From an uncultured virus (IMG/VR IMGVR_UViG_3300002835_000037) (Duplodnaviria; Heunggongvirae; Uroviricota; Caudoviricetes), in IMG/VR virus record IMGVR_UViG_3300002835_000037: a stretch of DNA of 58,453 bases, one strand, 5' to 3'. Both the position numbers and the translations under genes were made by a program. The first letter of the stretch is position 1; every line of letters begins with the position of its first letter. Under the pieces are notes generated by a model. It did no database searches, had not been told where the DNA came from, and saw nothing but the letters and a program-made list of their open reading frames with translations. Shown one piece after another: positions 18,888 through 50,800 of this stretch.

Positions 18888-19159
18888 ACAAATGCAATTG
18901 AATTATCTGTAATTAAAATTCTCATTTTTCCGTCAACCTCAATCTTTTCACCGGTTTCCAAAGCATAAGTTTGAACATACACTATGTCACCAACTTTGAT
19001 ATCAGTAACTTCATCTCCAATAGCAAATACTTCTAGCTTCTGCCATTTCTTCATTGCTTCTTGCATGATCATATCCTCATCCTTCATAGAGAGTTCCACA
19101 GCTGATTTTTTCAACTCAGGAACAGTTATCATAATTCTTTTACCTCTTAGATTTTTCAT
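18881..19159 (-). CDS. groES: GroES-like co-chaperonin
   Basis: LRGKRIMI...VFAIGDEVTDIKVGDIV. Confidence 0.7.
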   Translation of the reverse strand: MKNLRGKRIMITVPELKKSAVELSMKDEDMIMQEAMKKWQKLEVFAIGDEVTDIKVGDIVYVQTYALETGEKIEVDGKMRILITDNSIAFVW

Positions 19160-19176
19160 ATATATGTATTAATTAA

Positions 19177-19368
19177 TTACGCATCATATTTTTTTAAAGA
19201 AGTCAATTTACTATCAACCTTCATTAAATTATTTGTATTTACTAATGAAATCTTAATTTTTTCAAGTAGTCCAACTATTGCAAGATTATCATAAGCTTCT
19301 TCATTGATTCTTACTTCTAGACCTTCGCTTGTTTCAGCAATAGAAATAATAACATTTTTTTCTGACAT
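19177..19368 (-). CDS. Hypothetical protein
   Basis: Likely start MSEKNVII at 19368, downstream of a hairpin. Confidence 0.55.
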   Translation of the reverse strand: MSEKNVIISIAETSEGLEVRINEEAYDNLAIVGLLEKIKISLVNTNNLMKVDSKLTSLKKYDA

Positions 19369-19494
19369 ATTTTTAATTTTAAGCAAAAATACAAACTTTT
19401 TTTGTTTAAAACAAAAACCCCAGATATTTATCTGGGGTCTCTGCAAACAAAACATCAGAAAAGCAAATAAATTAACTTTTTACAAATATATAAA

Positions 19495-20121
19495 TTATTC
19501 ATTATCATAAAACATATTCTCTGTATCTTCAGTACCCCACTTAGTATGACTTTCACAATGATAAAACTTCAGATTGAGTTTATAATCCGGAATAGTTTTA
19601 AAAGGTTCTGATACCATGCTAGGTTCATTCCATAGGATCCTATTATTAGGATATATGCAAAAATGCCCTGAATCTAGTTCTATAACATGACCCATCTTAT
19701 GTTGACTAGGTTCTTCAGCATAAGAAGTAGATATAGTAGCACTACTGTCAGCATTCCAATCAATAGTAAATCTATACCGGCCTTCAACTTTCTCTTTGTT
19801 TTTTAAATAGACCTGGCACCTTTTTCCTTTAAGGAACATGAACTGGGTTACACTAGGACTATAAGAAAAGCAATCCCATAGCTGCAGTATATGAAAATCA
19901 ATGTGCGGGGCTTCAGGTTGCTCAAAAGGTACTAGAGCTGATACAGGTATCTTATCATAAATAGCACCTATATCAGTCATCACCACAAACAAAGCCGCTG
20001 TTCCCTGCAGACTCTTAATAGCAAAAGCCGTCCCCTCAACTAACTCCCCGTGGTGAGCTTCTAGATTATAAAGATACTCCTTCCTAATATAACACTCTAT
20101 AGGGGGGATATTAATATTCAT
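19495..20121 (-). CDS. Hypothetical phage protein
   Basis: Likely start MNINIPP at 20121; TATATTTG element upstream; LQLWDCFS, YPNNRILW. Confidence 0.7.
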   Translation of the reverse strand: MNINIPPIECYIRKEYLYNLEAHHGELVEGTAFAIKSLQGTAALFVVMTDIGAIYDKIPVSALVPFEQPEAPHIDFHILQLWDCFSYSPSVTQFMFLKGKRCQVYLKNKEKVEGRYRFTIDWNADSSATISTSYAEEPSQHKMGHVIELDSGHFCIYPNNRILWNEPSMVSEPFKTIPDYKLNLKFYHCESHTKWGTEDTENMFYDNE

Positions 20122-20189
20122 AAGATCAAGCTTTAATTTATACAAATATAAAAACTTTTTGGAATACTGGTACCACAATATATTAGAAG

Positions 20190-20400
20190 ATGTGGTGGGT
20201 CCTTACTGCGAGACCCCCGGGCCTCTCCGCTCGGCAGGGGTACCCCCTGGTGCTGCAAGATGACCAAATGAATTCGGTCATCTTTTGCAAGAAAATTTTC
20301 TTGTCAGAAAATGTTTCTATTGATGTATCATGCTATGCATGATACTACAGCTAGTTATGTGATCATTGCATGATAACATACCAGCTGGAAAGCTAACCCT
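20190..20400. other. GC-rich, palindrome-rich divergence point (candidate genome end/packaging/origin region)
   Basis: Strand switch; GGGGTACCCC 20237-20246 and several inverted repeats. Confidence 0.45.
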
Positions 20401-20432
20401 TGTCATAATATAAAATCTTTAAATTTTATCTT

Positions 20433-20648
20433 ATGAATAGTTTAGTAACTCGGGTTATAAGTAACCCTCATTCCAAAACAAGTTTTATCTTATACCCAAA
20501 TGGTATGAAACCATTTGTGATAAGTAAAACCAGAGCCAAAGGCCTCAAGGCAGGTAAAACCTTTCTTGTAGACCTTAAGGCAAGCACCACGGGTTTTGTC
20601 TATTCAGTCAAAGTCCATGGTGAGCTAGCAATAAAGAAAGGGAAGTAA
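20433..20648 (+). CDS. Hypothetical early protein
   Basis: 71 aa basic ORF followed by a terminator. Confidence 0.6.
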   Translation: MNSLVTRVISNPHSKTSFILYPNGMKPFVISKTRAKGLKAGKTFLVDLKASTTGFVYSVKVHGELAIKKGK

Positions 20649-20667
20649 TTCCCTTTCTTTCTTTTTT
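20634..20667 (+). terminator. Intrinsic terminator
   Basis: AAGAAAGGGAA-GTAA-TTCCCTTTCTT plus T tract. Confidence 0.75.
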
Positions 20668-20722
20668 CCCTCTTTTTTCTAACCCTAAACTTAAATTGAT
20701 AAATCAATTAAATTAATAAATT

Positions 20723-21238
20723 ATGCTTACAGCAAAATTTCTCAAGATGGGCAAAGGCGGAGCCTTAGCCATCTATGAAGTTCACGGAACTTCATCTGAA
20801 TTAGCCAACTTCGTTAAGGCTAATTATAAAGACAGGGAACCTGCCTTTAAAAGCACCATTGATGGTAAACCCATCACTGATGCTAGTGGCAATAAAGTTC
20901 CACTTTATTTCACTTCTTACCCGTTGCCGGGCAAGAATATGAAGCACCCTTTGTATCAAATACAAATGGGTGCTAATGCAGGTTCATTCACTCTTGATAA
21001 GAGTGACCTGCAATTTGAGATGCTTGTTACCAAAGCCTCCGGAGGAGACTTTGGCCAAGCCTATGCAACTGAAGTTGCAAAGAGGTATGCTGATAGCACA
21101 CCTATCTCATCAGCAGCATCTAGCTTACTAGATGATGATGATGATGAGGCAGATGAAGAGGACTTCACTGCCAAAGCATCTGAAGATGCTAGCTTTGATG
21201 TTGCCGAAGCAACACCCAAAGCAAAGACTACTAAGTAG
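20723..21238 (+). CDS. Hypothetical early protein with an acidic tail
   Basis: 171 aa; poly-Asp/Glu near the C-terminus. Confidence 0.75.
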   Translation: MLTAKFLKMGKGGALAIYEVHGTSSELANFVKANYKDREPAFKSTIDGKPITDASGNKVPLYFTSYPLPGKNMKHPLYQIQMGANAGSFTLDKSDLQFEMLVTKASGGDFGQAYATEVAKRYADSTPISSAASSLLDDDDDEADEEDFTAKASEDASFDVAEATPKAKTTK

Positions 21239-21248
21239 TCTTAGAAAT

Positions 21249-21283
21249 AAAGGATGACTCTTAGGAGTCATTCTTTATTTTTT
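21249..21283 (+). terminator. Intrinsic terminator
   Basis: AAAGGATGACTC-ttag-GAGTCATTCTTT plus T-rich tail. Confidence 0.7.
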
Positions 21284-21706
21284 CCTACCTGAAACATTTC
21301 CCTTTTTTTTCTAACCCATAACCTGAAATGATGATTACACTCTTTATAGAGTGTATAAAGTAGAAACATAAATATTAATATTTAAAAGTTTCTGTATGGA
21401 AATGTGCCTGACATAGGCTCATTAGAATTTAGATACTTGCTACTTGCATGTATCAGGTATCATATTTACTTTATTTCTTTACTGAGATTACTGAGTCTCC
21501 ACCGTGTGGAGCAAGTAGACTTTGGTATTGATAATCAAGTAGTTAAAAAATGCGGAACACGTGTATAGATAGGTGTGTTTTATCTATATACCAACTCTTA
21601 CCTCATTTATACCTTCTATCTAGTTAGTATTTTACTATTATAATACTTAGTATTATATAGATTTTATATAGCTAAACCTAGACTAGTAACCAATTAAAAC
21701 AAACAT

Positions 21707-21976
21707 ATGAAGATTAATGATTCATTTATCATTGGAGTTATTACAGGTAAGTTATCTTCTTTAGCATTCTTACTATTACTTATACATGTAGTTGGTGTTT
21801 CAGATGGAGAAACAAAGACTCCGGGAAACTACACTGATGTAGGCGGTAATATAGACATAGAATATTACTTGGAAGTATCAGAAGATAGTATATGGGTTGA
21901 GGGAGTTCAATCTAAAAAAGTATATTCTGGTAAATACTCAGACCTTGATAGTCTTATTAATGCTGATAACCTATAA
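21707..21976 (+). CDS. Hypothetical membrane-anchored protein
   Basis: N-terminal hydrophobic segment. Confidence 0.65.
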   Translation: MKINDSFIIGVITGKLSSLAFLLLLIHVVGVSDGETKTPGNYTDVGGNIDIEYYLEVSEDSIWVEGVQSKKVYSGKYSDLDSLINADNL

Positions 21977-21987
21977 ATATTTAACCA

Positions 21988-22155
21988 ATGGCAGATTTTA
22001 CAATCACTGAAGATCAAGCCATGTCTATGGGCATGGAAATTAATGACCTTATACACATGAAGTGTAAAGAAGGTTATAAAGTACTACATAAATACCAACA
22101 TCCTGCAGTAGGATTGGTAGTAGTTATGACTCCAGACTACTCTCTTGCAGGGTAG
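21988..22155 (+). CDS. Small hypothetical protein (55 aa)
   Basis: Hand-translated MADFTITEDQAMSMGMEINDLIHMKCKEG... Confidence 0.5.
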   Translation: MADFTITEDQAMSMGMEINDLIHMKCKEGYKVLHKYQHPAVGLVVVMTPDYSLAG

Positions 22156-22374
22156 TCTCTATTTAAACATTCTAGTTATAACCTTAACTGGTAAAACTTG
22201 CACTGATTTGCAGGTAATCCTATACTAGATAGGTTCTTGATTCCACGGGTTGACCACCGTGTAATAAATTAAAAGCGTCATATGAAAACAATTTAAATGT
22301 CCTGTAATGGCATCTCAAATTGTAGGTTTATGAGAGTAAGAACACTACAACCTACTGATGATACTACAAAGTAT

Positions 22375-22403
22375 TAGTCCTGAGTAAGACTATAAATTAC
22401 TTT
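22375..22403 (+). ncRNA. Repeated H-type pseudoknot motif, copy 1 (degenerate tail)
   Basis: TAGTC-CTGAGTAA-GACTA-TAAAT-TACTT. Confidence 0.45.
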
Positions 22404-22405
22404 CT

Positions 22406-22539
22406 TTACTGTTAGCAAACAGTGACAAACCTGTGGGGCTACTATTGGGTTCTATATCTCTCCTGCAAAGAGAGTATAGTGCTGACATATCATTTGCAGT
22501 GATATGAATCCAAAGTTAGTGCAGACTCAAAAATCAGGT
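22406..22539 (+). ncRNA. Hatchet self-cleaving ribozyme
   Basis: UUACUGUU/AACAGUGA P1, CAA linker, ACCUG/CAGGU P2, UGGGGCU and UUAGUGCAGAC core strands, A-rich linker; branched P4. Confidence 0.85.
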
Positions 22540-22629
22540 ATTTTACATATAGTATTGATAAAGCTATGTGAGTTTAATTTAAACTAGGCAGTGTTATACA
22601 CGGGAGTAATCCGGCAGTGTGAACCTGTT

Positions 22630-22746
22630 GACCGCAGCAGTAATATGTGGTATGCCATTATCTATTCTCCTCCACAAGATTCCACTTGGGAGAATACAGC
22701 TGACTGAAGTGGAATTCGGTTTAATTCAAATGAAGACTCAGCGGTC
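22630..22746 (+). ncRNA. Unidentified structured RNA with an 8+9 bp pseudoknot
   Basis: GACCGC/GCGGTC closing stem; TATTCTCC/GGAGAATA and ATTCCACTT/AAGTGGAAT. Confidence 0.45.
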
Positions 22747-22883
22747 TAAATGCAGTGTAGGATACTGTATTACATTTGTCTATTACTTTATTAATACTGA
22801 CTAGATCAGTATAACCATTAACAACATTAATCAAGTCCTGTGTACCTAACACAGGCAAGTCCTCACCAATAAATTTATATCTT

Positions 22884-23120
22884 ATGAATTCAACAGCACA
22901 CATTAGAACTCCTAAGCATGTTAATGTATACATGCCTTCTGATAACACTCTTAATCAAGAGTTAATAAAAACATCAGAAAAACTCTTTAAGCAACCATTA
23001 AATGAATTACAAATTATGGAAATTACCAAAATGAGTAAGGAAAATAAAGAATGGTTGCTTCAACAGTATAAACAAGAAGTAAGCTTCATTAAGGAGCCAG
23101 ATCTTTCTAGTTTATATTAA
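22884..23120 (+). CDS. Hypothetical protein between the two ribozymes
   Basis: 78 aa with an AT-rich leader. Confidence 0.6.
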   Translation: MNSTAHIRTPKHVNVYMPSDNTLNQELIKTSEKLFKQPLNELQIMEITKMSKENKEWLLQQYKQEVSFIKEPDLSSLY

Positions 23121-23126
23121 TGATCT

Positions 23127-23153
23127 TTCCTGAGCATGAATAAAAACTGCTCA
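23127..23153 (+). ncRNA. Repeated H-type pseudoknot motif, copy 2
   Basis: TTC-CTGAGCAT-GAA-TAAAAAC-TGCTCA. Confidence 0.5.
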
Positions 23154-23259
23154 TTTAATACATCAACTGTAAATAACTGCCTGGAGGTTTTTGACCTTTG
23201 CACCTTACGCGGTTTACATACAAGTAGTAATACTTGAGGGGGTTGTTGATGTTAAGCAA

Positions 23260-24015
23260 AGTAGTAATGCACCATTCCTGTTTCCCAATTCAAATATATT
23301 TAGTATATTTGTATTATGAAGATTTCTATATACACCTTGACAGATCCTAATACTAATAAAATTAGATATGTAGGACAAACAAATGATCCTAAAAGAAGAT
23401 TGAGTAGACATATAAACAACTCAAGAGCTTTTAAGGATAAAAGACATATCAGTAATTGGATAAGAAGTTTAACTTCTGCTCCAATAATGGATATAATTGA
23501 AGTTTGTGAGTATTCAATTAGAAATAGTAGAGAAAACTATTGGATTGATTACTATAAGAATCAAGGTTATGATTTATGCAACTCTTCTAATGGTGGTGCA
23601 GGTGCTGGTATTGGTAATAAGAATTGTTTAGGAAGAATTATGTCTGATAAAACAAAACAGAAAATAGCTAATGCAAACAAGAATAATACCAATGGATTAG
23701 GCAATAAAGGAGGAAAACCTTCAAAAACAATTTATCAATATGATAAAAATAAAATACCTATTGCTGTTTATAAATCAATACAAGATGCTGTTAAAGCTAC
23801 TGGATATAACAGAACAACAATAAGAAGAAATATTCAAAATATTAGTTCAAGTAAATTATTTATTTGGACTGATAAACCTTTGCTCTAACTCATCCAAGGG
23901 TGAGCAGTTGTAATAATATTGTAGTCCAGATTAGTTACAGTTAAGCACATTAGCTGTAATGAGTGGCAGCAACCGGAGCTGGAAACTATTATTACAACTG
24001 AGTGCAGAGGGTACT
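23260..24015 (+). ncRNA. Twister ribozyme interrupted by a GIY-YIG gene
   Basis: 5' AGUA-G-UAA-UGCA-CC (23260-23273); 3' CUCA-UCCAAGGG-UGAG (23889-23904), 14-bp P5, UGCA-GAGGG-UACU (24003-24015). Confidence 0.65.
23316..23888 (+). CDS. GIY-YIG homing endonuclease with NUMOD-type DNA-binding repeats
   Basis: SIYTL...RYVGQT...RRLSRH, E..WI; C-terminal IYQYD...YKSI..A. Confidence 0.85.
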   Translation: MKISIYTLTDPNTNKIRYVGQTNDPKRRLSRHINNSRAFKDKRHISNWIRSLTSAPIMDIIEVCEYSIRNSRENYWIDYYKNQGYDLCNSSNGGAGAGIGNKNCLGRIMSDKTKQKIANANKNNTNGLGNKGGKPSKTIYQYDKNKIPIAVYKSIQDAVKATGYNRTTIRRNIQNISSSKLFIWTDKPLL

Positions 24016-24058
24016 CAACTTATAGAAACTTAATTAATAATTTAAAAATAAACTCAAA

Positions 24059-24871
24059 ATGAAAATTCATTTACATTCTAAACCAGGGTTATATGAAGTA
24101 GTAACCTATGGTAGAAACAGTATTACTTGTTCTACCAAGCATAGCACATTTCAAGTACCAAGCAGTGATTTTAAATCATTTGCCGGTGGTAGTTGGAACT
24201 TTAGTGTTACCAAAGATCAGATGGATATATTTCTATCTGTTGTTCAACCTGATAAATATAAGATCCAAGTAGAACAAGAAGATCAAATCTTGACATTAGC
24301 TGCTAGATTAGATATCATTCAAGCTGCTGTTAAAGCACAACAAACTGTTGTTGTTGAAGAAGAACCAGAAGCTTATGAAGATGATTATCCTGATGGTAAT
24401 CCACAAGAACCTACCAAAGAAGAATATGAAAAGTGGTGGAGACAAGAATCTGATAAGAATTATGAATTGAACAATAAGATGAGAAATATTGCACGTCAAG
24501 TGTATTCTCAGAATCTTGACTTTACTCATTTTCAGAATCACAAGGGTATTAAATTTATTATACAACAAGATCATTATGATGATAAAATCAACAGATTTTG
24601 TTGGGATCCTTATGGCTTTGTTAGTAATGGTCACAGTGATATCAGTAGTATTTATAGTGAAGGTGATTGGGGTACAATTAATGGTGGTTGGATTAAAATC
24701 ATAGATGATAATGTGATTTTATATGCTAAATCAGGTGATTATGGTGTATATGATGATGCTATTGCCATAGAGTGTGCAAAGAAAATATTTCCTACAAAGA
24801 AAATACATTCATTTGCCGGCAGACAATGGAATGATGAATTAACTTCAAAATTCTCATTGTATTCTTTTTGA
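24059..24871 (+). CDS. Hypothetical protein with a C-terminal Janus/Ocnus (PHPT1)-like domain
   Basis: GIKFII...HSDI...GGWIKI...ILYAKSGDYG...AI...K.IFP. Confidence 0.6.
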   Translation: MKIHLHSKPGLYEVVTYGRNSITCSTKHSTFQVPSSDFKSFAGGSWNFSVTKDQMDIFLSVVQPDKYKIQVEQEDQILTLAARLDIIQAAVKAQQTVVVEEEPEAYEDDYPDGNPQEPTKEEYEKWWRQESDKNYELNNKMRNIARQVYSQNLDFTHFQNHKGIKFIIQQDHYDDKINRFCWDPYGFVSNGHSDISSIYSEGDWGTINGGWIKIIDDNVILYAKSGDYGVYDDAIAIECAKKIFPTKKIHSFAGRQWNDELTSKFSLYSF

Positions 24872-24876
24872 TCTTG

Positions 24877-24904
24877 TATCCTGAGTATGATATTAAACTA
24901 CTCA
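24877..24904 (+). ncRNA. Repeated H-type pseudoknot motif, copy 3
   Basis: TATC-CTGAGTAT-GATA-TTAAAC-TACTCA. Confidence 0.5.
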
Positions 24905-24995
24905 TTTATTATCTCTCTCTATAGTACAATACTAGTTTCCGGGGAATCAATAATAAAACTAAAAATAAATCATTAATCACTTTAAACATTAAACT

Positions 24996-25907
24996 ATGAG
25001 AAACTTAAGTAACAATGGCCTTAGCATGTCACAGGCACAAACTATCAGTAACCTATGTAATCAAAGAGCTACTGAGATTCAAAGAGAGTTAGACTCTTAT
25101 AACAACTGTAGTAAGACTATTACTATAGATGGTAAAACACATCTTGTTGTTGAACCAAGTCCTGTTCCGGGAGATTTTTTAACTAAGCTCAAGCTTAAAG
25201 CTTCTTTGCATGCTTGCCAGGCTTTCCTTATGGAAGCTATTAAGTCTAAAGATGCTGAAATCAAAAGAATCAAACATGCTCAAGTAGATATCTCTCATTT
25301 AGAGATACCTAAAAGAGAATACATTGAAGACTTTGATATACTTGATAATGTGGAAGAATCCTGGGGATGGCAACAGCTCACAGATACTGAATACTCTGAG
25401 TATTTAGATGCTGAAGCAATGGCTGCTCACTTAGGTCAATTCATTCATAAGAATGGTGTATTAAGTAACTTAAGAAAAGAGCTTCCGGGGATCCCAACCA
25501 TTGAGTGGTTTGAGGTAGAAACTGGTAAGAAAACACCAGTTATGGTTACCAAACACCACAACTCTAATCAGCTTATGAATATTCATGAGACTATTGCAAA
25601 AGAGCATAAGATCTATGAGCAACGTGTAAATTATTACAAAGCTAAGGTTAAAAACCTGGTAAGTGATGAGAATGCACGTATTCAAAAGTATAATGCTGAT
25701 AGAGCAGCTGAGCAAATAAAGCTTGAACAAGAAGTTGAAGCTAAATATGAAGTTGCACGAAATGCATATACTGGAGAAGTTGTTAGATTAAAGATGGAGT
25801 TCAATGCTAAAAGAGAACAAGACATCAAAGCTACTGCAGCATTAAGAATTAATGTTGATCCTAGATTTCAGCCTGTAATTGACATGTTCAATACACCTGA
25901 AAACTAG
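24996..25907 (+). CDS. Coiled-coil hypothetical protein upstream of a structured RNA
   Basis: 303 aa, helical and E/K/A-rich. Confidence 0.8.
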   Translation: MRNLSNNGLSMSQAQTISNLCNQRATEIQRELDSYNNCSKTITIDGKTHLVVEPSPVPGDFLTKLKLKASLHACQAFLMEAIKSKDAEIKRIKHAQVDISHLEIPKREYIEDFDILDNVEESWGWQQLTDTEYSEYLDAEAMAAHLGQFIHKNGVLSNLRKELPGIPTIEWFEVETGKKTPVMVTKHHNSNQLMNIHETIAKEHKIYEQRVNYYKAKVKNLVSDENARIQKYNADRAAEQIKLEQEVEAKYEVARNAYTGEVVRLKMEFNAKREQDIKATAALRINVDPRFQPVIDMFNTPEN

Positions 25908-26114
25908 TAAACTTATAAGGTTATAATTACACAGAGCGTCTCCTTACTGCCCATAGGATATGGGTGCTGCATAAAAAGCAGGTAGTAAAGTGGGTAATGC
26001 CACAGGATGTCCTGATAGGTATGATGTAATGAATGTTGGTCTTGAGTACAACCAACAGTAACTTTAAATTAGGTGAGTAAGAGATAAGCACAAGCTGATT
26101 CTCTTACTCTTTAT

Positions 26115-26370
26115 ACTTAGTGACAGGAATCACATATAAGCAAATTGATAAATGGTTTTGGTACCATAATACAACAAAATAATTTTAAACCGCTTCTCTT
26201 CAAACTTATAAAAACTGAGATAGAACTCATCCGTTAGACAGGTTATTGTGTTATTGAAACACTATTGGCTAACACATTGAGACTTGGTATTTGTATTTGC
26301 CTTTGTAGAAGAGAAGGTCTTTGAATTTGATTTTGTATTTGACATTAGCTATATATTTCTGTCACTAAGT
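26115..26370 (+). ncRNA. Structured element with a TTTGNN hexamer register
   Basis: 16-bp closing stem, 9-bp inner stem, eight in-register hexamers at 26284-26343. Confidence 0.55.
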
Positions 26371-26519
26371 GACTATTTTACTTGGTCTTACATTTGAACC
26401 TAGTAATATTTTAGATATTGTTTCGGTTAAAGATGTGCCAAACTTTGTGATCTATTCAGATTCAGGAGATATTTAATAAACAGGGAGCGTAACAACTCCC
26501 CTTAAAAACTAAAAAAAAG

Positions 26520-26765
26520 ATGAAAAAAGAACTTAAAGACGATTGGACACCACAAGCGGGGGAGTGGGTGTTGGTTAGCAATGATAATGTTGTTTGGGAT
26601 AAAAGGCTGTTTGTTTGTGTTTGGAAAGACAAATACCGATGCGAGGCACTTGGGAGCACGGACTACATAATAGCTTGGCAACACATCCGCCAAATCAAGC
26701 CCGAAACAATGACCTTGCAAGAAGTGAGAGAGGTGTTGGGTAAACCTAATTTGGTTATTGAGTAG
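26520..26765 (+). CDS. Hypothetical protein directly upstream of the attC-like site
   Basis: 81 aa; visibly GC-richer than neighbours. Confidence 0.65.
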   Translation: MKKELKDDWTPQAGEWVLVSNDNVVWDKRLFVCVWKDKYRCEALGSTDYIIAWQHIRQIKPETMTLQEVREVLGKPNLVIE

Positions 26766-26898
26766 TGATAACGGTTTCGGGCTTGCCGTCAGGTTGGGAT
26801 TAATTAGTACAAATTTTAAATTGAAATACAAATGTTAAATAAAGCACTTACATACATAGAAGCACGAATGCCCAACTTGCGGCAAACCCGTGTTATAA
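26766..26898 (+). mobile_element. attC-like recombination site
   Basis: TGATAAC...GTTATAA ends; arms CGGGCTTGCCGTCAGGTTGGG / CCCAACTTGCGGCAAACCCG with one unpaired base. Confidence 0.6.
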
Positions 26899-27074
26899 GC
26901 CGTTTTTTATGCTACTTCGGAGTACATAAGATAAGAATAGGCTTAGGTTGGTCAGGAATTAAAAGATTTGATACTTGCTATCATTGTAAGTATTCAATTT
27001 GGGTTGAAGATATTGAAGGCAATAAAAAGATTAATGCTGAATTACAAAAGCATATTGATAGCAAGTCGTCTTAA
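26832..27074 (+). CDS. Cassette-borne hypothetical protein
   Basis: Start lies inside the attC-like site; C.F..H...C..C motif. Confidence 0.6.
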   Translation: MLNKALTYIEARMPNLRQTRVISRFLCYFGVHKIRIGLGWSGIKRFDTCYHCKYSIWVEDIEGNKKINAELQKHIDSKSS

Positions 27075-47814: not shown

Positions 47815-50800
47815 ATGAGTCAAGTACAATTAAACGTTGAAGAGTTAAAGGATTTTATTAAGCATATGGTTAAGAATAACCAACACATTCAGTCTGAAGG
47901 AAAAGTTCCTGTGGCAGTGAACATTGAAGGTGATGCTGGGCTTAATTCAAAATAAATGAGTATATTTGTAACATGAAGAAATTAATTTCAGAGTGTTTAC
48001 ACAAAGACTTAAATCAAAAGTGTGGTATTTACAAACTTACTTGTAATGAGCACAGTTATATTGGTAGCAGTATTAATATTTATTATAGGTTGAAAAGACA
48101 TATATCAGATTTGCTAAAAAATAAGCATGCAAATAAGTATATGCAAAATGCTTTTAATAAATATGGAAAGGATAGTTTTATATTTGAAGTAATAGAAGAA
48201 TGTAATAGAGATGTGTTAATTAAAACAGAATCCTATTATATAGAATCTATGTCTCCGGACTTAAACTTTATTCAAAATCCTGTTGCAATGATCCACAGTA
48301 ATGAAACATTACTTAGGATTTCTGCAACATTAAAAGAAGCTTATGCTTCTAAAAGAATAAAAAATCCTATTTCTAAAACTGTTCATCAATATAATATAAA
48401 TGGTTTTTATCTTAAATCTTATGAATCCTGTGCTGAAGCAGAAAAACAATTGAACTTACCAAAAGGAAAAGTTTCAAGAGTAGCTTCAGGAAAAGGATTT
48501 TCTTGTAAAAACTATAGATGGAGTTATGAATTAAAAAATAAACTTGGAGAATCTGTTATTAAACCAGATACAACAAAAAAAGTTTATGTATATGATGAGA
48601 ACAACAACTTAGTTCAAGAATGGCAAAGAGTGGGTAATGTAGCTAGTAATCTAGGTATTAGCTCATCTGCAATGTCTACAAGAATTAAAAAAGGTAATTA
48701 CTATGATGGTTTAAGATATTCATTTAACCCAGGTCCAGGGTAAAAATTGGGTGAATTGCTGGGAGTTCCTAAAGCTTTGTTAGCTACAACATAACCGGAA
48801 ATGGTAAGTGTGAATGCTTGAAAATAACAAAGATGTCCTAATGGATAATCAGCAGCCAAGTCTAGATCTAAATGGTCTGGAAAGGTTCAACGACTAGGTA
48901 TTGAAACTATGTAAATAGAATATAATATACCCAAGAGTGCCCAACACCAAGTAATTGGTGAAGATATAGTCTGAACTATAGTGAAAGCTATAGAAACAAG
49001 GATAAAGAGCCTTGTGATAACAAAATGTGGAAAAACAAGTGCAATTATGCAGTTGGGTAAAGAATTGCAAATGGATGTTGTAAAGTTGAATTTATCTCAA
49101 CTTGAAGAATTAGGTGACTTAGTTGGGTTTCCTGTAAAAGAATTTCAGATACAAAATGCAGAAGGTAAAACTACCTGGATTAATGAATCTCAGATATCTG
49201 CAGCTAGTGCGAAAGGTTATAAGGTTGTTGGAAAAAGAATGTCACATGCTGCTCCTGAATGGATTCAGGGTAAAGGTGAAGGTGGTTTCTTAATCTTAGA
49301 TGACTATACTCGTGCGGATTAACAAAATATGCAGTCTAGTAGTGTTAGTGTGAATAATTTAATTATCTTTGTGATATGGAAAAATTAAACACACAAACTC
49401 TTAAGACCGCATTAAAGAGTATAGGAATCTATAAAATTAAAATTAATGATAAAGAGTACATTGGTAGCTCTTGTAATATTGGTCAAAGATTAAAACATCA
49501 TTTATGGTCTCTTGAAAATTTAAAACACCATAATAGAACAATGCAGAATTTATACAACAAGTATAGTAAAGAAGAAATTTACTTTGAAGTTGTAGAAGAG
49601 TGTTCAGATGAAGTTTTAATTGAGAGAGAAGCTTATTATATTAGCACACTTAATCCATATATAAATCATATACTAGATCCACAAACTCTAGTCAGGGATG
49701 ATGTATGTAAACAAAGGATAAGTGATACTAAGAAAAAAGCTTATGCAAATGGTCTAAAACCTCACAATCTTAAAGCAGTACATAAATATTCACTTGATAA
49801 AGGTGAGTATTTAGAAAGTTTTGATTCTCTTACAGCTGCTGCTAAATCTATTAATGCTAAAAGTATTAATAGTATAAAAGCAGTATGTAATAGTAAGCAA
49901 ACTTCTGCAGGAGGTTATGTTTGGTCTTATAATAAAGTTAATCTAGTTTTTTCTAGAGATAAAAAATATAAGTTAGAACCAGTGTTACAATTTACTATTG
50001 ATAATATTTTTATCAAAAAATGGGAGTCTATAACTGAAGCAAGTAAAGAACTTGGTATCTCTAATATTAATAGAGCAATATCTAGAAATTTAACTGCTGG
50101 GGGTTATAGATGGTCTAAAAAGCATAAAGTGTTTGGTCCGCAATAAATCATGTGAATTCAGGGAAACTCCAGAGATGGACAATCCTGAGCCAAGCCTTAT
50201 AGGGATATAAGGAAGGTGCAACGACTAGTGTATGGAGTCTAGAACAGACAGTAAAACACCAAGAGCGCATGACACATAGAAATATGTGATGATATAGTCT
50301 GAACTGTACATATAATCTAAATGAAAGTACAGAATCTAAGGATAAAGAGCCTTAGAGTTAACAAAATGCAACGCTTTATGCAAGCAACAATGGAGATCCT
50401 AGACAGACAAGAATATGTTTCTTGGAAGTTACCAAAGAACTGGCATGTACTTTTGACTACTAATCCAGACAATGGTGATTACAATGTAACTTCTCTGGAT
50501 GTAGCTCAGAAGACTAGATTTATCTCTGTAGAGTTAAAGTATGATTCTGATGTATGGGCTAAGTGGGCAGAGAAAGCAAGTATTGATGGTAGATGTATTA
50601 ACTTTATGTTGATGCATCCAGAATTGGTAACTCAAAGAGTTAATCCAAGATCTATCACTACATTCTTTAATGCAATTAGTTCTATTCCAAAGTTTGAAGA
50701 TAACTTACCTTTAATTCAAATGATTGGTGAGGGATCTGTTGGACCTGATTTTAGTTCTATGTTTACTATGTTCATTAATAACAAACTTGATAGAATTATT

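What the first reader, a model, noticed from the sequence alone, without database searches (positions are those of the whole stretch)
22406..22539. Hatchet ribozyme with an expanded, branched P4
Seen: all hatchet elements in order (P1, CAA, P2, UGGGGCU, UUAGUGCAGAC, A-rich linker, P2'). P4 (TTGGGTTC/GAATCCAA) carries two extra hairpins, both with UGCA in their loops. Established: hatchet is one of the rarer self-cleaving classes and cuts at the 5' base of P1. Predicted cut at about 22405/22406.
Basis: partly seen in the sequence, partly recalled or inferred. Interest (0 to 1): 0.7.

Follow-up and report, generated by a model that had tools for sequence, protein, structure and literature searches.

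The report
Hatchet ribozyme heading a phage RNA
This stretch of an uncultured crAss-like phage encodes a genuine hatchet self-cutting RNA whose side arm carries two hairpins with exactly complementary loops, and it sits at the head of a conserved, heavily folded non-coding RNA whose job is unknown.

Summary
Rfam's Hatchet model (RF02678) matches window 22402-22539 (+) end to end at 77.7 bits, against a cut-off of 51 (E 2.4e-14). Every conserved core nucleotide named in the crystal-structure paper is present.

P4 (TTGGGTTC/GAATCCAA) does branch into two hairpins. The loops CUGCAAA (22463-22469) and UUUGCAG (22493-22499) are exact 7-nt complements. Relatives with the same branched P4 use four other complementary word pairs, and a sixth was seen by eye. 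Cognate loop pairs match over 7 nt; 20 non-cognate pairs match over at most 4. Earlier notes of this scan reported the same kind of arm on other phage DNA. I found no description of it in print.

There is also something new in the context. In 28 of 34 related IMG/VR contigs, homology begins at the ribozyme's 5' end. It then runs about 326 nt further (22540-22865), through covarying hairpins, a pseudoknot and two loop-loop matches, to a hairpin followed by AAGUCCUCA just before the next gene. No Rfam family matches this stretch.

Cleavage has not been observed, because no RNA run was listed. The verdict is a real member of a known ribozyme class with a P4 elaboration I did not find described, and an undescribed leader RNA attached.

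The parts
22382..22402 (+). Weak P0-like hairpin (GAGUAA 22382-22387 with UUACUU 22397-22402, 9-nt loop) ending 3 nt before the cut
   Evidence: RNAfold of the 60 nt upstream. Most relatives carry an unrelated hairpin ending 2-5 nt before the cut. Li 2015 section 6 says about 90% of hatchets have a P0 without sequence conservation.
22402..22539 (+). Hatchet self-cleaving ribozyme, full length
   Evidence: Rfam RF02678, 77.7 bits (gathering score 51), E 2.4e-14, model 1-133 (repeated)
22405..22406 (+). Predicted scissile bond between U(-1) 22405 and U1 22406
   Evidence: U1 pairs with the base before CAA (Zheng 2019 passages). The model alignment places U22406 opposite A22425. Inferred, not observed.
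22406..22425 (+). P1, 6 bp (22406-22411 with 22420-22425), with the 8-nt loop L1 UUAGCAAA
   Evidence: On A3, 3 of the 6 pairs show changes on both sides and 92.5% of cells are paired.
22426..22428 (+). Conserved CAA linker (C20-A22 of the solved structure)
   Evidence: Invariant in 34 of 34 aligned sequences
22429..22440 (+). P2 5' strand ACCUG (22429-22433), core UGGG (22434-22437, equivalent to U28-G31 with G31 at 22437), and the P3 5' strand (22437-22440)
   Evidence: P2: 100% of cells paired, 3 of 5 pairs with changes on both sides
22445..22513 (+). P4 stem (22445-22452 with 22506-22513) enclosing a three-way junction
   Evidence: 4 of 8 P4 pairs show changes on both sides and 91.3% of cells are paired
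22453..22478 (+). P4 arm 1: 9 bp with U22457 bulged; 7-nt loop CUGCAAA at 22463-22469
   Evidence: In the inner helix, 5 of 5 pairs show changes on both sides. RNAalifold found the same hairpin independently.
22486..22506 (+). P4 arm 2: 6-7 bp; 7-nt loop UUUGCAG at 22493-22499, the exact complement of the arm 1 loop
   Evidence: On A3, 3 of 6 stem pairs show changes on both sides.
22516..22539 (+). UUAGUGCAGAC core (P3 3' strand 22518-22522; G63-G66 equivalents GCAG 22521-22524), A-rich L2 (A73-A75 equivalents 22531-22533), and the P2 3' strand 22535-22539
22540..22865 (+). Conserved non-coding structured RNA following the ribozyme. It contains H1 22546-22570, H2 22571-22585, a swappable variable domain 22586-22657, and a pseudoknot (helix A 22663-22670/22689-22696; helix B 22679-22687/22707-22715). 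It continues with H4 22734-22747 (loop UCAGCG), H5 22749-22771 (loop GUAGGAU), H6 22794-22812 and H7 22837-22855 (loop UACCUAA).
   Evidence: 94.2% of cells paired against 89.9% in shuffles and 35-47% when slid; 17 of 55 pairs show changes on both sides. There is no conserved ORF and no Rfam hit.
22857..22865 (+). Terminal motif AAGUCCUCA right after hairpin H7; the only copy in the window
22884..23120 (+). First ORF after the RNA (78 aa, no family match); ATG 19 nt after the motif

Best explanation
A functional hatchet ribozyme is transcribed with the rightward (+) arm of a distant crAss-like phage. As the RNA folds, the 2'-oxygen of U22405 attacks the adjacent phosphate. This Mg2+-dependent internal transesterification, with G22437 (the G31 equivalent) in the active site, cuts between 22405 and 22406. 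The upstream RNA is left with a 2',3'-cyclic phosphate. The downstream RNA begins with a 5'-hydroxyl on U22406 and keeps the whole ribozyme at its 5' end. The far end of P4 is a three-way junction whose two arms most likely lock together through a 7-bp loop-loop helix (CUGCAAA with UUUGCAG). This would stiffen the P3-P4 helix and favour correct folding. The ribozyme and the next 326 nt form one conserved unit. The ribozyme most likely sets the 5' end of this folded RNA, separating it from the variable upstream message and giving it an end that 5'-monophosphate-dependent decay does not act on. The unit then acts as a leader for, or a stand-alone RNA in front of, the next gene. Shown here: class membership, the structure, and the linkage of ribozyme and leader. 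Inferred: the cleavage itself, that the kissing is intramolecular, and any role in stability or expression.
For: Rfam Hatchet scores 77.7 bits against a cut-off of 51, E 2.4e-14, over the full model. All conserved segments named by Zheng 2019 (C20-A22, U28-G31, G63-G66, A73-A75) are present. Of 34 contigs sharing a core 21-mer, 33 give full Hatchet hits; the other is truncated by its contig end. On alignment A3 (20 sequences) 87.4% of cells are paired against 72.5% in shuffles, and 24 of 45 pairs show changes on both sides (1 of 500 shuffles reaches that count). Sliding the partners drops pairing to 34-43%. G-U pairs are kept in P1, P3 and P4 (for example 20 of 20 GU at one P3 pair), which marks the + strand as the RNA strand. 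Position -1 is U 14, A 12, C 7, G 0 in 33 sequences. This matches the finding that C(-1)U and C(-1)A cleave like wild type while C(-1)G is slower (Zheng 2019). For the kissing loops, 18 of 66 distinct P3-P4 inserts have exact 7-nt loop complements using 5 different words. Cognate pairs score 7,7,7,7,7, while 20 non-cognate pairs score at most 4. A sixth word was seen by eye in L382. For the unit, BLAST homology starts at 22397-22406 in 28 of 34 loci. All 30 genuine copies of the downstream pseudoknot motif in IMG/VR are preceded by a hatchet. The downstream structure is supported by covariation.
Against: No cleavage product has been seen: no RNA run was listed, so expression and the 5' end are untested. 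The minimum-free-energy fold of the isolated 138 nt (-38.5 kcal/mol) is not the hatchet fold. It pairs the two 7-nt words as an ordinary nested helix, whereas the hatchet-consistent structure scores -24.2 without tertiary terms. Within the window's own family both loop words are invariant, so covariation of the kiss rests on other lineages. On the MAFFT alignment only 77.9% of kissing cells pair, because other lineages sit shifted by one column. In the longer relatives (159-168 nt) the second word lies in an internal loop and matches over only 5-6 nt by my reading. A 7-bp kiss between two adjacent short arms joined by 6 nt may be strained; I could not model it. L1 has 8 nt rather than the consensus 7. 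The P0 hairpin is weak. The role of the downstream RNA is unknown.
Confidence: 0.85

Rival explanations
1. The ribozyme is real, but the two 7-nt words do not kiss. They form an ordinary nested helix in one long irregular P4 hairpin, or they switch between the two folds.
For: RNAfold's minimum-free-energy and centroid structures of the window sequence pair CUGCAAA with UUUGCAG as a nested helix. The energy favours this fold over the branched one when tertiary terms are ignored.
Against: The nested fold requires the two arm stems to open, yet both stems covary: arm 1's inner helix in 5 of 5 pairs and arm 2 in 3 of 6 pairs. In lineages with other words (L126, L282, L230, L168) the arm strands are not complementary to each other, while the loops still match over 7 nt.
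Confidence: 0.12
2. The complementary loops pair between molecules (loop 1 of one RNA with loop 2 of another). This would make dimers or rings of the processed RNA, in the manner of phi29 packaging RNA.
For: An intramolecular 7-bp kiss between neighbouring 7-9-bp arms looks geometrically tight (inference). Hatchet products exist as a monomer-dimer equilibrium in solution (Zheng 2019).
Against: Nothing here distinguishes intra- from intermolecular pairing. The published hatchet dimer uses a different, non-conserved palindrome, and monomeric mutants were fully active (Zheng 2019).
Confidence: 0.1
3. The stretch is an inactive relic, or it is conserved for a DNA-level reason (a recombination or packaging site), and no RNA is cut.
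For: No RNA evidence is available. Homology breakpoints at the element's edges could also mark a recombination module.
Against: Every catalytic-core nucleotide is intact and invariant in 34 of 34 sequences. Changes in the helices are compensatory and G-U pairs are kept, which only makes sense for + strand RNA. The score is far above the family cut-off.
Confidence: 0.03

Closest known systems
Hatchet self-cleaving ribozyme, Rfam RF02678 (Weinberg et al. 2015, not held here; Li et al. 2015 PMC4604424, sections 5-7 read; Zheng et al. 2019 PMC6561176, passages read)
   Same: It has P1-CAA-P2-L2-P3-L3-P4 in the published order, all conserved core nucleotides, a 6-bp P1, and a cut site at the 5' base of P1. 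It has an upstream P0-like hairpin, a long insert in P4, and a metagenomic phage origin.
   Different: The distal P4 is a three-way junction with two hairpins whose 7-nt loops are exact complements. The constructs studied had the P4 loop replaced by UUCG or GAAA, and the parts I read say nothing about structure there. L1 has 8 nt. Position -1 is U rather than C, a change shown to be tolerated.
Hatchets with 'kissing side-arms' noted earlier in this scan on other crAss-like phage DNA (e1-6130299, e1-7847473)
   Same: The architecture is the same: a branched P4 with two exactly complementary hairpin loops.
   Different: This is a different phage lineage using its own word pair (CUGCAAA/UUUGCAG). 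Here the ribozyme is also tied to a conserved 326-nt downstream RNA. Those notes are unchecked AI notes; I repeated the test on my own sample.
ColE1 RNA I / RNA II loop-loop complex and phi29 pRNA (recalled from general knowledge, no call)
   Same: They are fully complementary 7-nt hairpin loops forming a loop-loop helix (ColE1), and a three-way junction carrying two loops that pair (pRNA).
   Different: Both of those act between molecules. Here both loops sit on one ribozyme arm, and whether the pairing is within or between molecules is untested.
Natural hammerhead ribozymes with stem I / stem II loop contacts (mentioned in Li 2015 section 6)
   Same: Peripheral loops outside the catalytic core make tertiary contacts that speed folding and cleavage in the natural context.
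   Different: It is a different ribozyme class. The hammerhead contacts are mostly non-Watson-Crick, whereas here the contact would be a 7-bp Watson-Crick helix.
HDV-like ribozymes (compared in Zheng 2019, discussion)
   Same: The ribozyme lies wholly downstream of its cut site, so it stays on, and defines the 5' end of, the downstream RNA.
   Different: The fold is unrelated. No HDV-type nested double pseudoknot is present.

Membership tests
Hatchet ribozyme (RF02678) | Covariance-model score at or above Rfam's gathering score over the full model | tested here: met
   77.7 bits against 51, E 2.4e-14, model 1-133 of 133
Hatchet ribozyme (RF02678) | [quoted passage not shown] | tested here: met
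   Model alignment. On 20 sequences P1, P2 and P4 covary, and P3 is 100% paired.
Hatchet ribozyme (RF02678) | Highly conserved nucleotides C20-A22, U28-G31, G63-G66 and A73-A75 (numbering of Zheng 2019) | tested here: met
   CAA 22426-22428, UGGG 22434-22437, GCAG 22521-22524, AAA 22531-22533. CAA, UGGG and AAA are invariant in 34 of 34 relatives; GCAG is 90% or more conserved, since one row (L008) is misaligned there.
Hatchet ribozyme (RF02678) | P1 of three or six base pairs (Li 2015: 40% and 59% of members) | tested here: met
   Six model pairs, 22406-22411 with 22420-22425. Two further U-A pairs are possible in the loop.
Hatchet ribozyme (RF02678) | Internal loop L3 between P3 and P4 with unpaired residues that dock on L1 (a mutant lacking them is inactive, Zheng 2019) | tested here: met
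   ACUA 22441-22444 lies opposite AGUU 22514-22517, unpaired in the model alignment. The docking itself cannot be tested here.
Hatchet ribozyme (RF02678) | P0 hairpin a few nucleotides 5' of the cut (about 90% of members; dispensable) | tested here: inconclusive
   The window has a weak 6-bp hairpin ending 3 nt before the cut. Most of the 19 distinct upstream flanks fold into a hairpin ending 2-5 nt before it.
Hatchet ribozyme (RF02678) | Nucleotide -1 compatible with cleavage | tested here: met
   The window has U. Relatives have U 14, A 12, C 7, G 0 of 33. C(-1)U and C(-1)A cleave like wild type (Zheng 2019).
Hatchet ribozyme (RF02678) | Mg2+-dependent self-cleavage giving a 2',3'-cyclic phosphate and a 5'-OH at the base of P1 | not testable with these tools
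   No RNA-holding run was listed. A bench assay is needed.
Any Rfam family, for the downstream RNA 22540-22865 | Covariance-model match | tested here: not met
   In cmscan of 22250-23320 at E up to 10, only Hatchet is significant. The five other rows score 14-22 bits against cut-offs of 40-53.

The most novel reading that the evidence does not exclude
The hatchet is the built-in 5'-end maker of an undescribed class of large folded phage RNAs. In this lineage the RNA is 326 nt long, with a pseudoknot, two loop-loop contacts and a swappable variable domain. In other crAss-like lineages a stretch that differs in sequence and, in the five freshwater lineages examined, is of similar length follows the hatchet. 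Nearly all of these stretches end in a hairpin followed by GUC(C/G)UCA. On this reading the processed RNA has a job of its own, such as a decoy, a regulator or a scaffold, rather than serving as a passive leader. It would also mean that hatchets in phages exist to release such RNAs.
Probability: 0.25. Interest if true: 0.75.

Novelty: new variant of a known kind. Interest (0 to 1): 0.5.

Why it matters
Hatchet is one of the rarest self-cleaving classes: Li et al. 2015 knew 210 examples, all from metagenomes. Its natural job is unknown, as it is for most phage-borne small ribozymes.

Two results here make that question testable. First, natural hatchets of several lineages carry a peripheral lock, two complementary loops on a branched P4. 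The minimal constructs used for kinetics and crystallography had this part removed. It may set folding speed or oligomeric state in vivo, much as peripheral loops do for hammerheads. Second, in this phage group the ribozyme is never separated from a conserved, intricately folded RNA that starts where the cut falls. This points to 5'-end maturation of a specific RNA as the ribozyme's role, and it names an RNA to knock out or express.

If instead the downstream RNA proves to be an ordinary leader, the find is a well-documented new member of a known class.

Tried and rejected
Public RNA runs: none was listed for window 21000-25000, so no reads were laid.

GenBank phages, blastn 'distant' with 21000-24000: no match.

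The window's own assembly is not held. The nearest held record, G001, has no hatchet and does not cover the locus, giving only two matches of about 30 nt, so it says nothing.

The first degenerate scan (GTGGGGC..GTGCAGAC) was mostly chance. Only 10 of 121 loci passed a P2-pairing filter, so a stricter pattern replaced it.

Rfam at E up to 10 gave nothing credible for the downstream RNA. No tRNA or tmRNA was found in the window. PHROGs and Pfam named none of the neighbouring small ORFs except the GIY-YIG gene.

Coding reading of 22540-22865: rejected. The longest stop-free stretch changes strand and frame among the 26 relatives, and the ORFs at 22619-22804 and 22721-22948 have no family match.

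The idea that AAGUCCUCA pairs with the hatchet core UGGGGCU: rejected. The C-to-G variant (GUCGUCA) occurs in contigs with an unchanged core, and no consistent internal partner exists.

The idea that the motif is a general promoter or ribosome-binding signal of this phage: rejected, because the window holds only one copy.

Sequence homology of the downstream RNA across hatchet lineages: not shown. An nhmmer profile of A2 found only members of the window's own family.

A tRNA-like sequence that I read by eye just after the motif in L368 is not called by ARAGORN.

The sigma-70 promoter and terminator scan of 20000-24200 gave no more sites than shuffles.

Literature: Weinberg et al. 2015 is not held, so its consensus figure and supplement, which may show P4 detail, were not seen. 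Three searches turned up no description of P4 kissing loops. 'hatchet + kissing + ribozyme' gave 16 papers (listing read, plus passages of one). 'hatchet ribozyme / three-way junction / loop-loop / Crassvirales' was read as a listing. 'crAss-like + self-cleaving ribozyme' gave 0 papers.

Full report
THE OBSERVATION

Window 22402-22539 (+) reads UUCU UUACUG UUAGCAAA CAGUGA CAA ACCUG UGGGGCU ... UUAGUGCAGAC UCAAAAAU CAGGU. Rfam's Hatchet model RF02678 matches it end to end, model positions 1-133 of 133. The score is 77.7 bits against a gathering score of 51, with E 2.4e-14 for the whole 58-kb window (the same hit recurs). The only other Rfam hits in the window are two group I introns far downstream.

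MAPPING ONTO THE SOLVED STRUCTURE

Zheng et al. 2019 (PMC6561176; passages read) state that U1 pairs with A19, the base immediately before the conserved C20-A21-A22 linker. They place the conserved residues in four segments: C20-A22, U28-G31, G63-G66 and A73-A75.

- In the window, A22425 precedes CAA (22426-22428) and pairs with U22406.
- The four conserved segments are all present: CAA 22426-22428, UGGG 22434-22437 (the proposed general base G31 is G22437), GCAG 22521-22524, and AAA 22531-22533.
- P1 has six pairs. Li et al. 2015 (PMC4604424, section 5) report that P1 has three or six pairs in nearly all members.
- Position -1 is U rather than the C of the studied constructs. Zheng et al. found that C(-1)U and C(-1)A cleave like wild type and that C(-1)G is slower.
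- Among the window and 32 relatives, -1 is U 14, A 12, C 7 and never G (the misaligned row L008 was left out).
- A weak P0-like hairpin (22382-22387 with 22397-22402) ends 3 nt before the cut. Most relatives carry unrelated hairpins ending 2-5 nt before it. This fits the sequence-free P0 that about 90% of hatchets have (Li 2015 section 6).

RELATIVES

A 21-mer of the core occurs in 34 IMG/VR contigs. Of these, 33 give full-length Hatchet hits of 75.3-86.7 bits (20 of 20, 13 of 14). The last one, L036, is cut off by its contig end. Lengths run from 96 to 168 nt. The terminase of the window's phage is most similar, at about 25% identity, to those of crAss-like phages of Bacteroides and Flavobacterium. 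Portal, major head and DNA polymerase families fit a tailed phage. The ribozyme lies about 2 kb into the rightward gene arm, in an ORF-poor gap.

THE BRANCHED P4

P4 (22445-22452 with 22506-22513) encloses three parts. Arm 1 is 22453-22478, with 9 bp and one bulged U. A 6-nt linker follows. Arm 2 is 22486-22506.

Read in full, the loops are CUGCAAA (22463-22469) and UUUGCAG (22493-22499), exact reverse complements over all seven positions.

To learn whether this is more than a family quirk, I collected hatchets with a stricter pattern. Together with the earlier loci this gave 66 distinct P3-P4 inserts from 177 locus entries, where one contig site can appear under several ids.

- With span-limited folding, 45 of the 66 inserts have two or more local hairpins, and 18 of the 66 have an exact 7-nt complement between two hairpin loops.
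- Those 18 use five different words: CUGCAAA, CUACCAA, CUACUAA, UUAACAG and UUAUCAG. A sixth pair, CUUCUAA/UUAGAAG, was seen by eye in L382.
- Cognate loop pairs match over 7,7,7,7,7 nt. All 20 non-cognate combinations match over 2-4 nt.
- Representatives of five other lineages (those with the four other words and one AAGG/CCUU lineage) are themselves full Rfam hatchets at 75-84 bits.

On a 20-sequence alignment spanning these lineages (A3), the named structure has 87.4% of cells paired, against 72.5% in shuffles and 34-43% when the partners are slid. Twenty-four of 45 pairs show changes on both sides. Arm 1's inner helix covaries at 5 of 5 pairs, P4 at 4 of 8, P2 at 3 of 5, P1 at 3 of 6 and arm 2 at 3 of 6. 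The kissing helix scores only 77.9% paired there. MAFFT places the loop of other lineages one column off, so the per-sequence count is the better measure.

Results against the kissing model are these.

- RNAfold's minimum-free-energy fold of the window's 138 nt (-38.5 kcal/mol, z -2.46, 3 of 200 shuffles as good) pairs the two words as a nested helix and breaks parts of the hatchet core. The hatchet-consistent branched fold scores -24.2 kcal/mol before any tertiary term, and the two loops alone form a duplex of -7.0.
- The nested alternative needs both arm stems open. This is at odds with their covariation, and with lineages whose arm strands cannot pair with each other.
- In the longer relatives (159-168 nt) arm 2 carries an extra helix, and by my reading of the sequences the second word lies in an internal loop, matching over only 5-6 nt.
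- Whether the pairing is within one molecule or between two is open.

IS IT KNOWN?

A long P4 insert is ordinary: the natural Ht-1 had 44 nt of P4 replaced by UUCG (Li 2015 section 6). The constructs used for kinetics and crystals lack the distal P4. In what I could read and search I found no mention of a branched P4 with complementary loops. The discovery paper (Weinberg 2015) and its supplement are not held and could show it.

This scan has already noted the same architecture on other crAss-like phage DNA (e1-6130299 and e1-7847473). I treated those notes as leads and repeated the test on my own sample, with the same outcome.

THE SURROUNDINGS

BLAST of window 19000-27000 against the 34 loci shows homology that begins at 22397-22406 in 28 of 34 loci. 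In the other six it runs through without a break. Most often it ends at 22865-22893. Upstream flanks fall into several unrelated types. So the conserved unit is the ribozyme plus the next 326 nt (22540-22865).

An alignment of 26 distinct copies (A2) shows the following parts.

- Hairpins H1 and H2.
- A variable domain (22586-22657) replaced by at least six unrelated sequences, or absent, in different relatives.
- An H-type pseudoknot, helix A 22663-22670/22689-22696 and helix B 22679-22687/22707-22715.
- Hairpins H4 (loop UCAGCG), H5 (loop GUAGGAU), H6 and H7 (loop UACCUAA).
- The motif AAGUCCUCA at 22857-22865.

On this structure 94.2% of cells pair, against 89.9% in shuffles and 35-47% when slid, and 17 of 55 pairs show changes on both sides. 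H5 has 6 of 8 such pairs, H4 3 of 4, H7 3 of 6, and each pseudoknot helix 2. H1 and H2 hardly vary, and H6 is poorly aligned.

The H5 and H7 loops are complementary over 4-6 nt in 26 of 26 sequences, with one compensatory variant: UGGGAA/UUCCCA in L032 against UAGG/CCUA elsewhere. The H4 loop UCAGC matches GCUGA in the pseudoknot's third loop in 25 of 26.

The stretch folds better than shuffles (z -2.54, 0 of 100). It has no conserved reading frame and no Rfam match.

A pattern from the pseudoknot found 74 IMG/VR loci. Thirty of them have the partner strand, and all 30 are preceded by a hatchet. The other 44 lack the partner and are what chance predicts for 15 fixed bases.

A MOTIF SHARED MORE WIDELY

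In five other freshwater lineages, the 260-300 nt after the hatchet look unrelated in sequence: an nhmmer profile of A2 finds only the window's own family. Yet each ends in a hairpin followed by (G/A)AGUCCUCA.

Gut crAss-like genomes carry two or three hatchets each. Four of the six hatchet sites that my core pattern found in those loci are followed by a hairpin plus GUCCUCA or GUCGUCA.

Over 34 distinct hatchet units with 400 nt on both sides, GUC(C/G)UCA occurs downstream on the same strand in 32, upstream in 2, and on the opposite strand in 0. Most of the 34 are close relatives, so the independent support comes from roughly ten lineages.

The window holds a single copy of the motif, so it is not a general signal of this phage. 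I found no internal pairing partner for it. What reads it is unknown.

HOW IT MOST LIKELY WORKS

- Established for the class: Mg2+-dependent attack of the 2'-oxygen of nucleotide -1 on the adjacent phosphate, yielding a 2',3'-cyclic phosphate and a 5'-hydroxyl (Li 2015 section 6; Zheng 2019).
- Inferred for this copy: a cut at 22405/22406 during transcription of the rightward arm.
- Inferred from the anatomy: the P4 lock stiffens the P3-P4 helix and shields the ribozyme's folding from variable flanks. The ribozyme also fixes the 5' end of the conserved folded RNA, freeing it from whatever lies upstream.
- Not shown: expression, cleavage, the oligomeric state, and any function of the downstream RNA. 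No RNA run was listed.

VERDICT

This is a real member of a known ribozyme class. The branched, loop-locked P4 is a recurrent natural elaboration that I did not find described in print, though this scan has seen it before. The attached 326-nt RNA is undescribed and is the part most worth following up.

Noticed in passing
window 48701-48993 and 50086-50315 (+): Two group I introns (Rfam RF00028, 84.6 and 77.9 bits) lie 1.1 kb apart. Each follows a GIY-YIG homing-endonuclease-like ORF (47973-48743 and 49376-50146) whose 3' end overlaps the intron's first bases. The host gene they interrupt was not worked out.
   Followed up: partly
window 23155-23262 and 23316-23888 (+): A GIY-YIG/NUMOD1 homing endonuclease gene (23316-23888) is present only in the window and its two nearest relatives (L003, L020). 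The 108 nt in front of it (23155-23262) are homologous to the sequence that lies immediately upstream of the hatchet in eight other contigs (L007, L009, L010, L011, L016, L017, L028, L032). This looks like a rearrangement carried along with the endonuclease gene.
   Followed up: partly
window 22586-22657 (+): The domain between H2 and the pseudoknot of the downstream RNA is replaced by at least six unrelated sequences, or is missing (L006, L031), among otherwise similar relatives. This is a swappable module inside a conserved RNA.
   Followed up: partly
window 22857-22865; L366-L370, L383, L385, L387, L388: A hairpin followed by GUC(C/G)UCA ends the stretch after hatchets in 32 of 34 distinct units, including lineages with no other sequence similarity. 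It usually lies 10-35 nt before a start codon. What reads it is unknown.
   Followed up: partly
L384, L385, L386 (gut crAss-like records G007, G009, G010): Gut crAss-like genomes hold 2-3 hatchets within about 3 kb. Downstream of three of them lies another conserved non-coding stretch shared by all three loci. A tRNA-Leu(UAA) follows in L384 and L385.
   Followed up: no
L368, just after the GAGUCCUCA motif: A sequence with D-loop-like and T-loop-like motifs (read by eye) starts 6 nt after the motif, but ARAGORN does not call it a tRNA.
   Followed up: partly
L008:2984-3079: One contig shares the 21-mer core but has a 96-nt hatchet with a short unbranched P4 (76.4 bits) and no homology downstream. 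This shows that the core moves independently of the P4 elaboration and of the leader.
   Followed up: no
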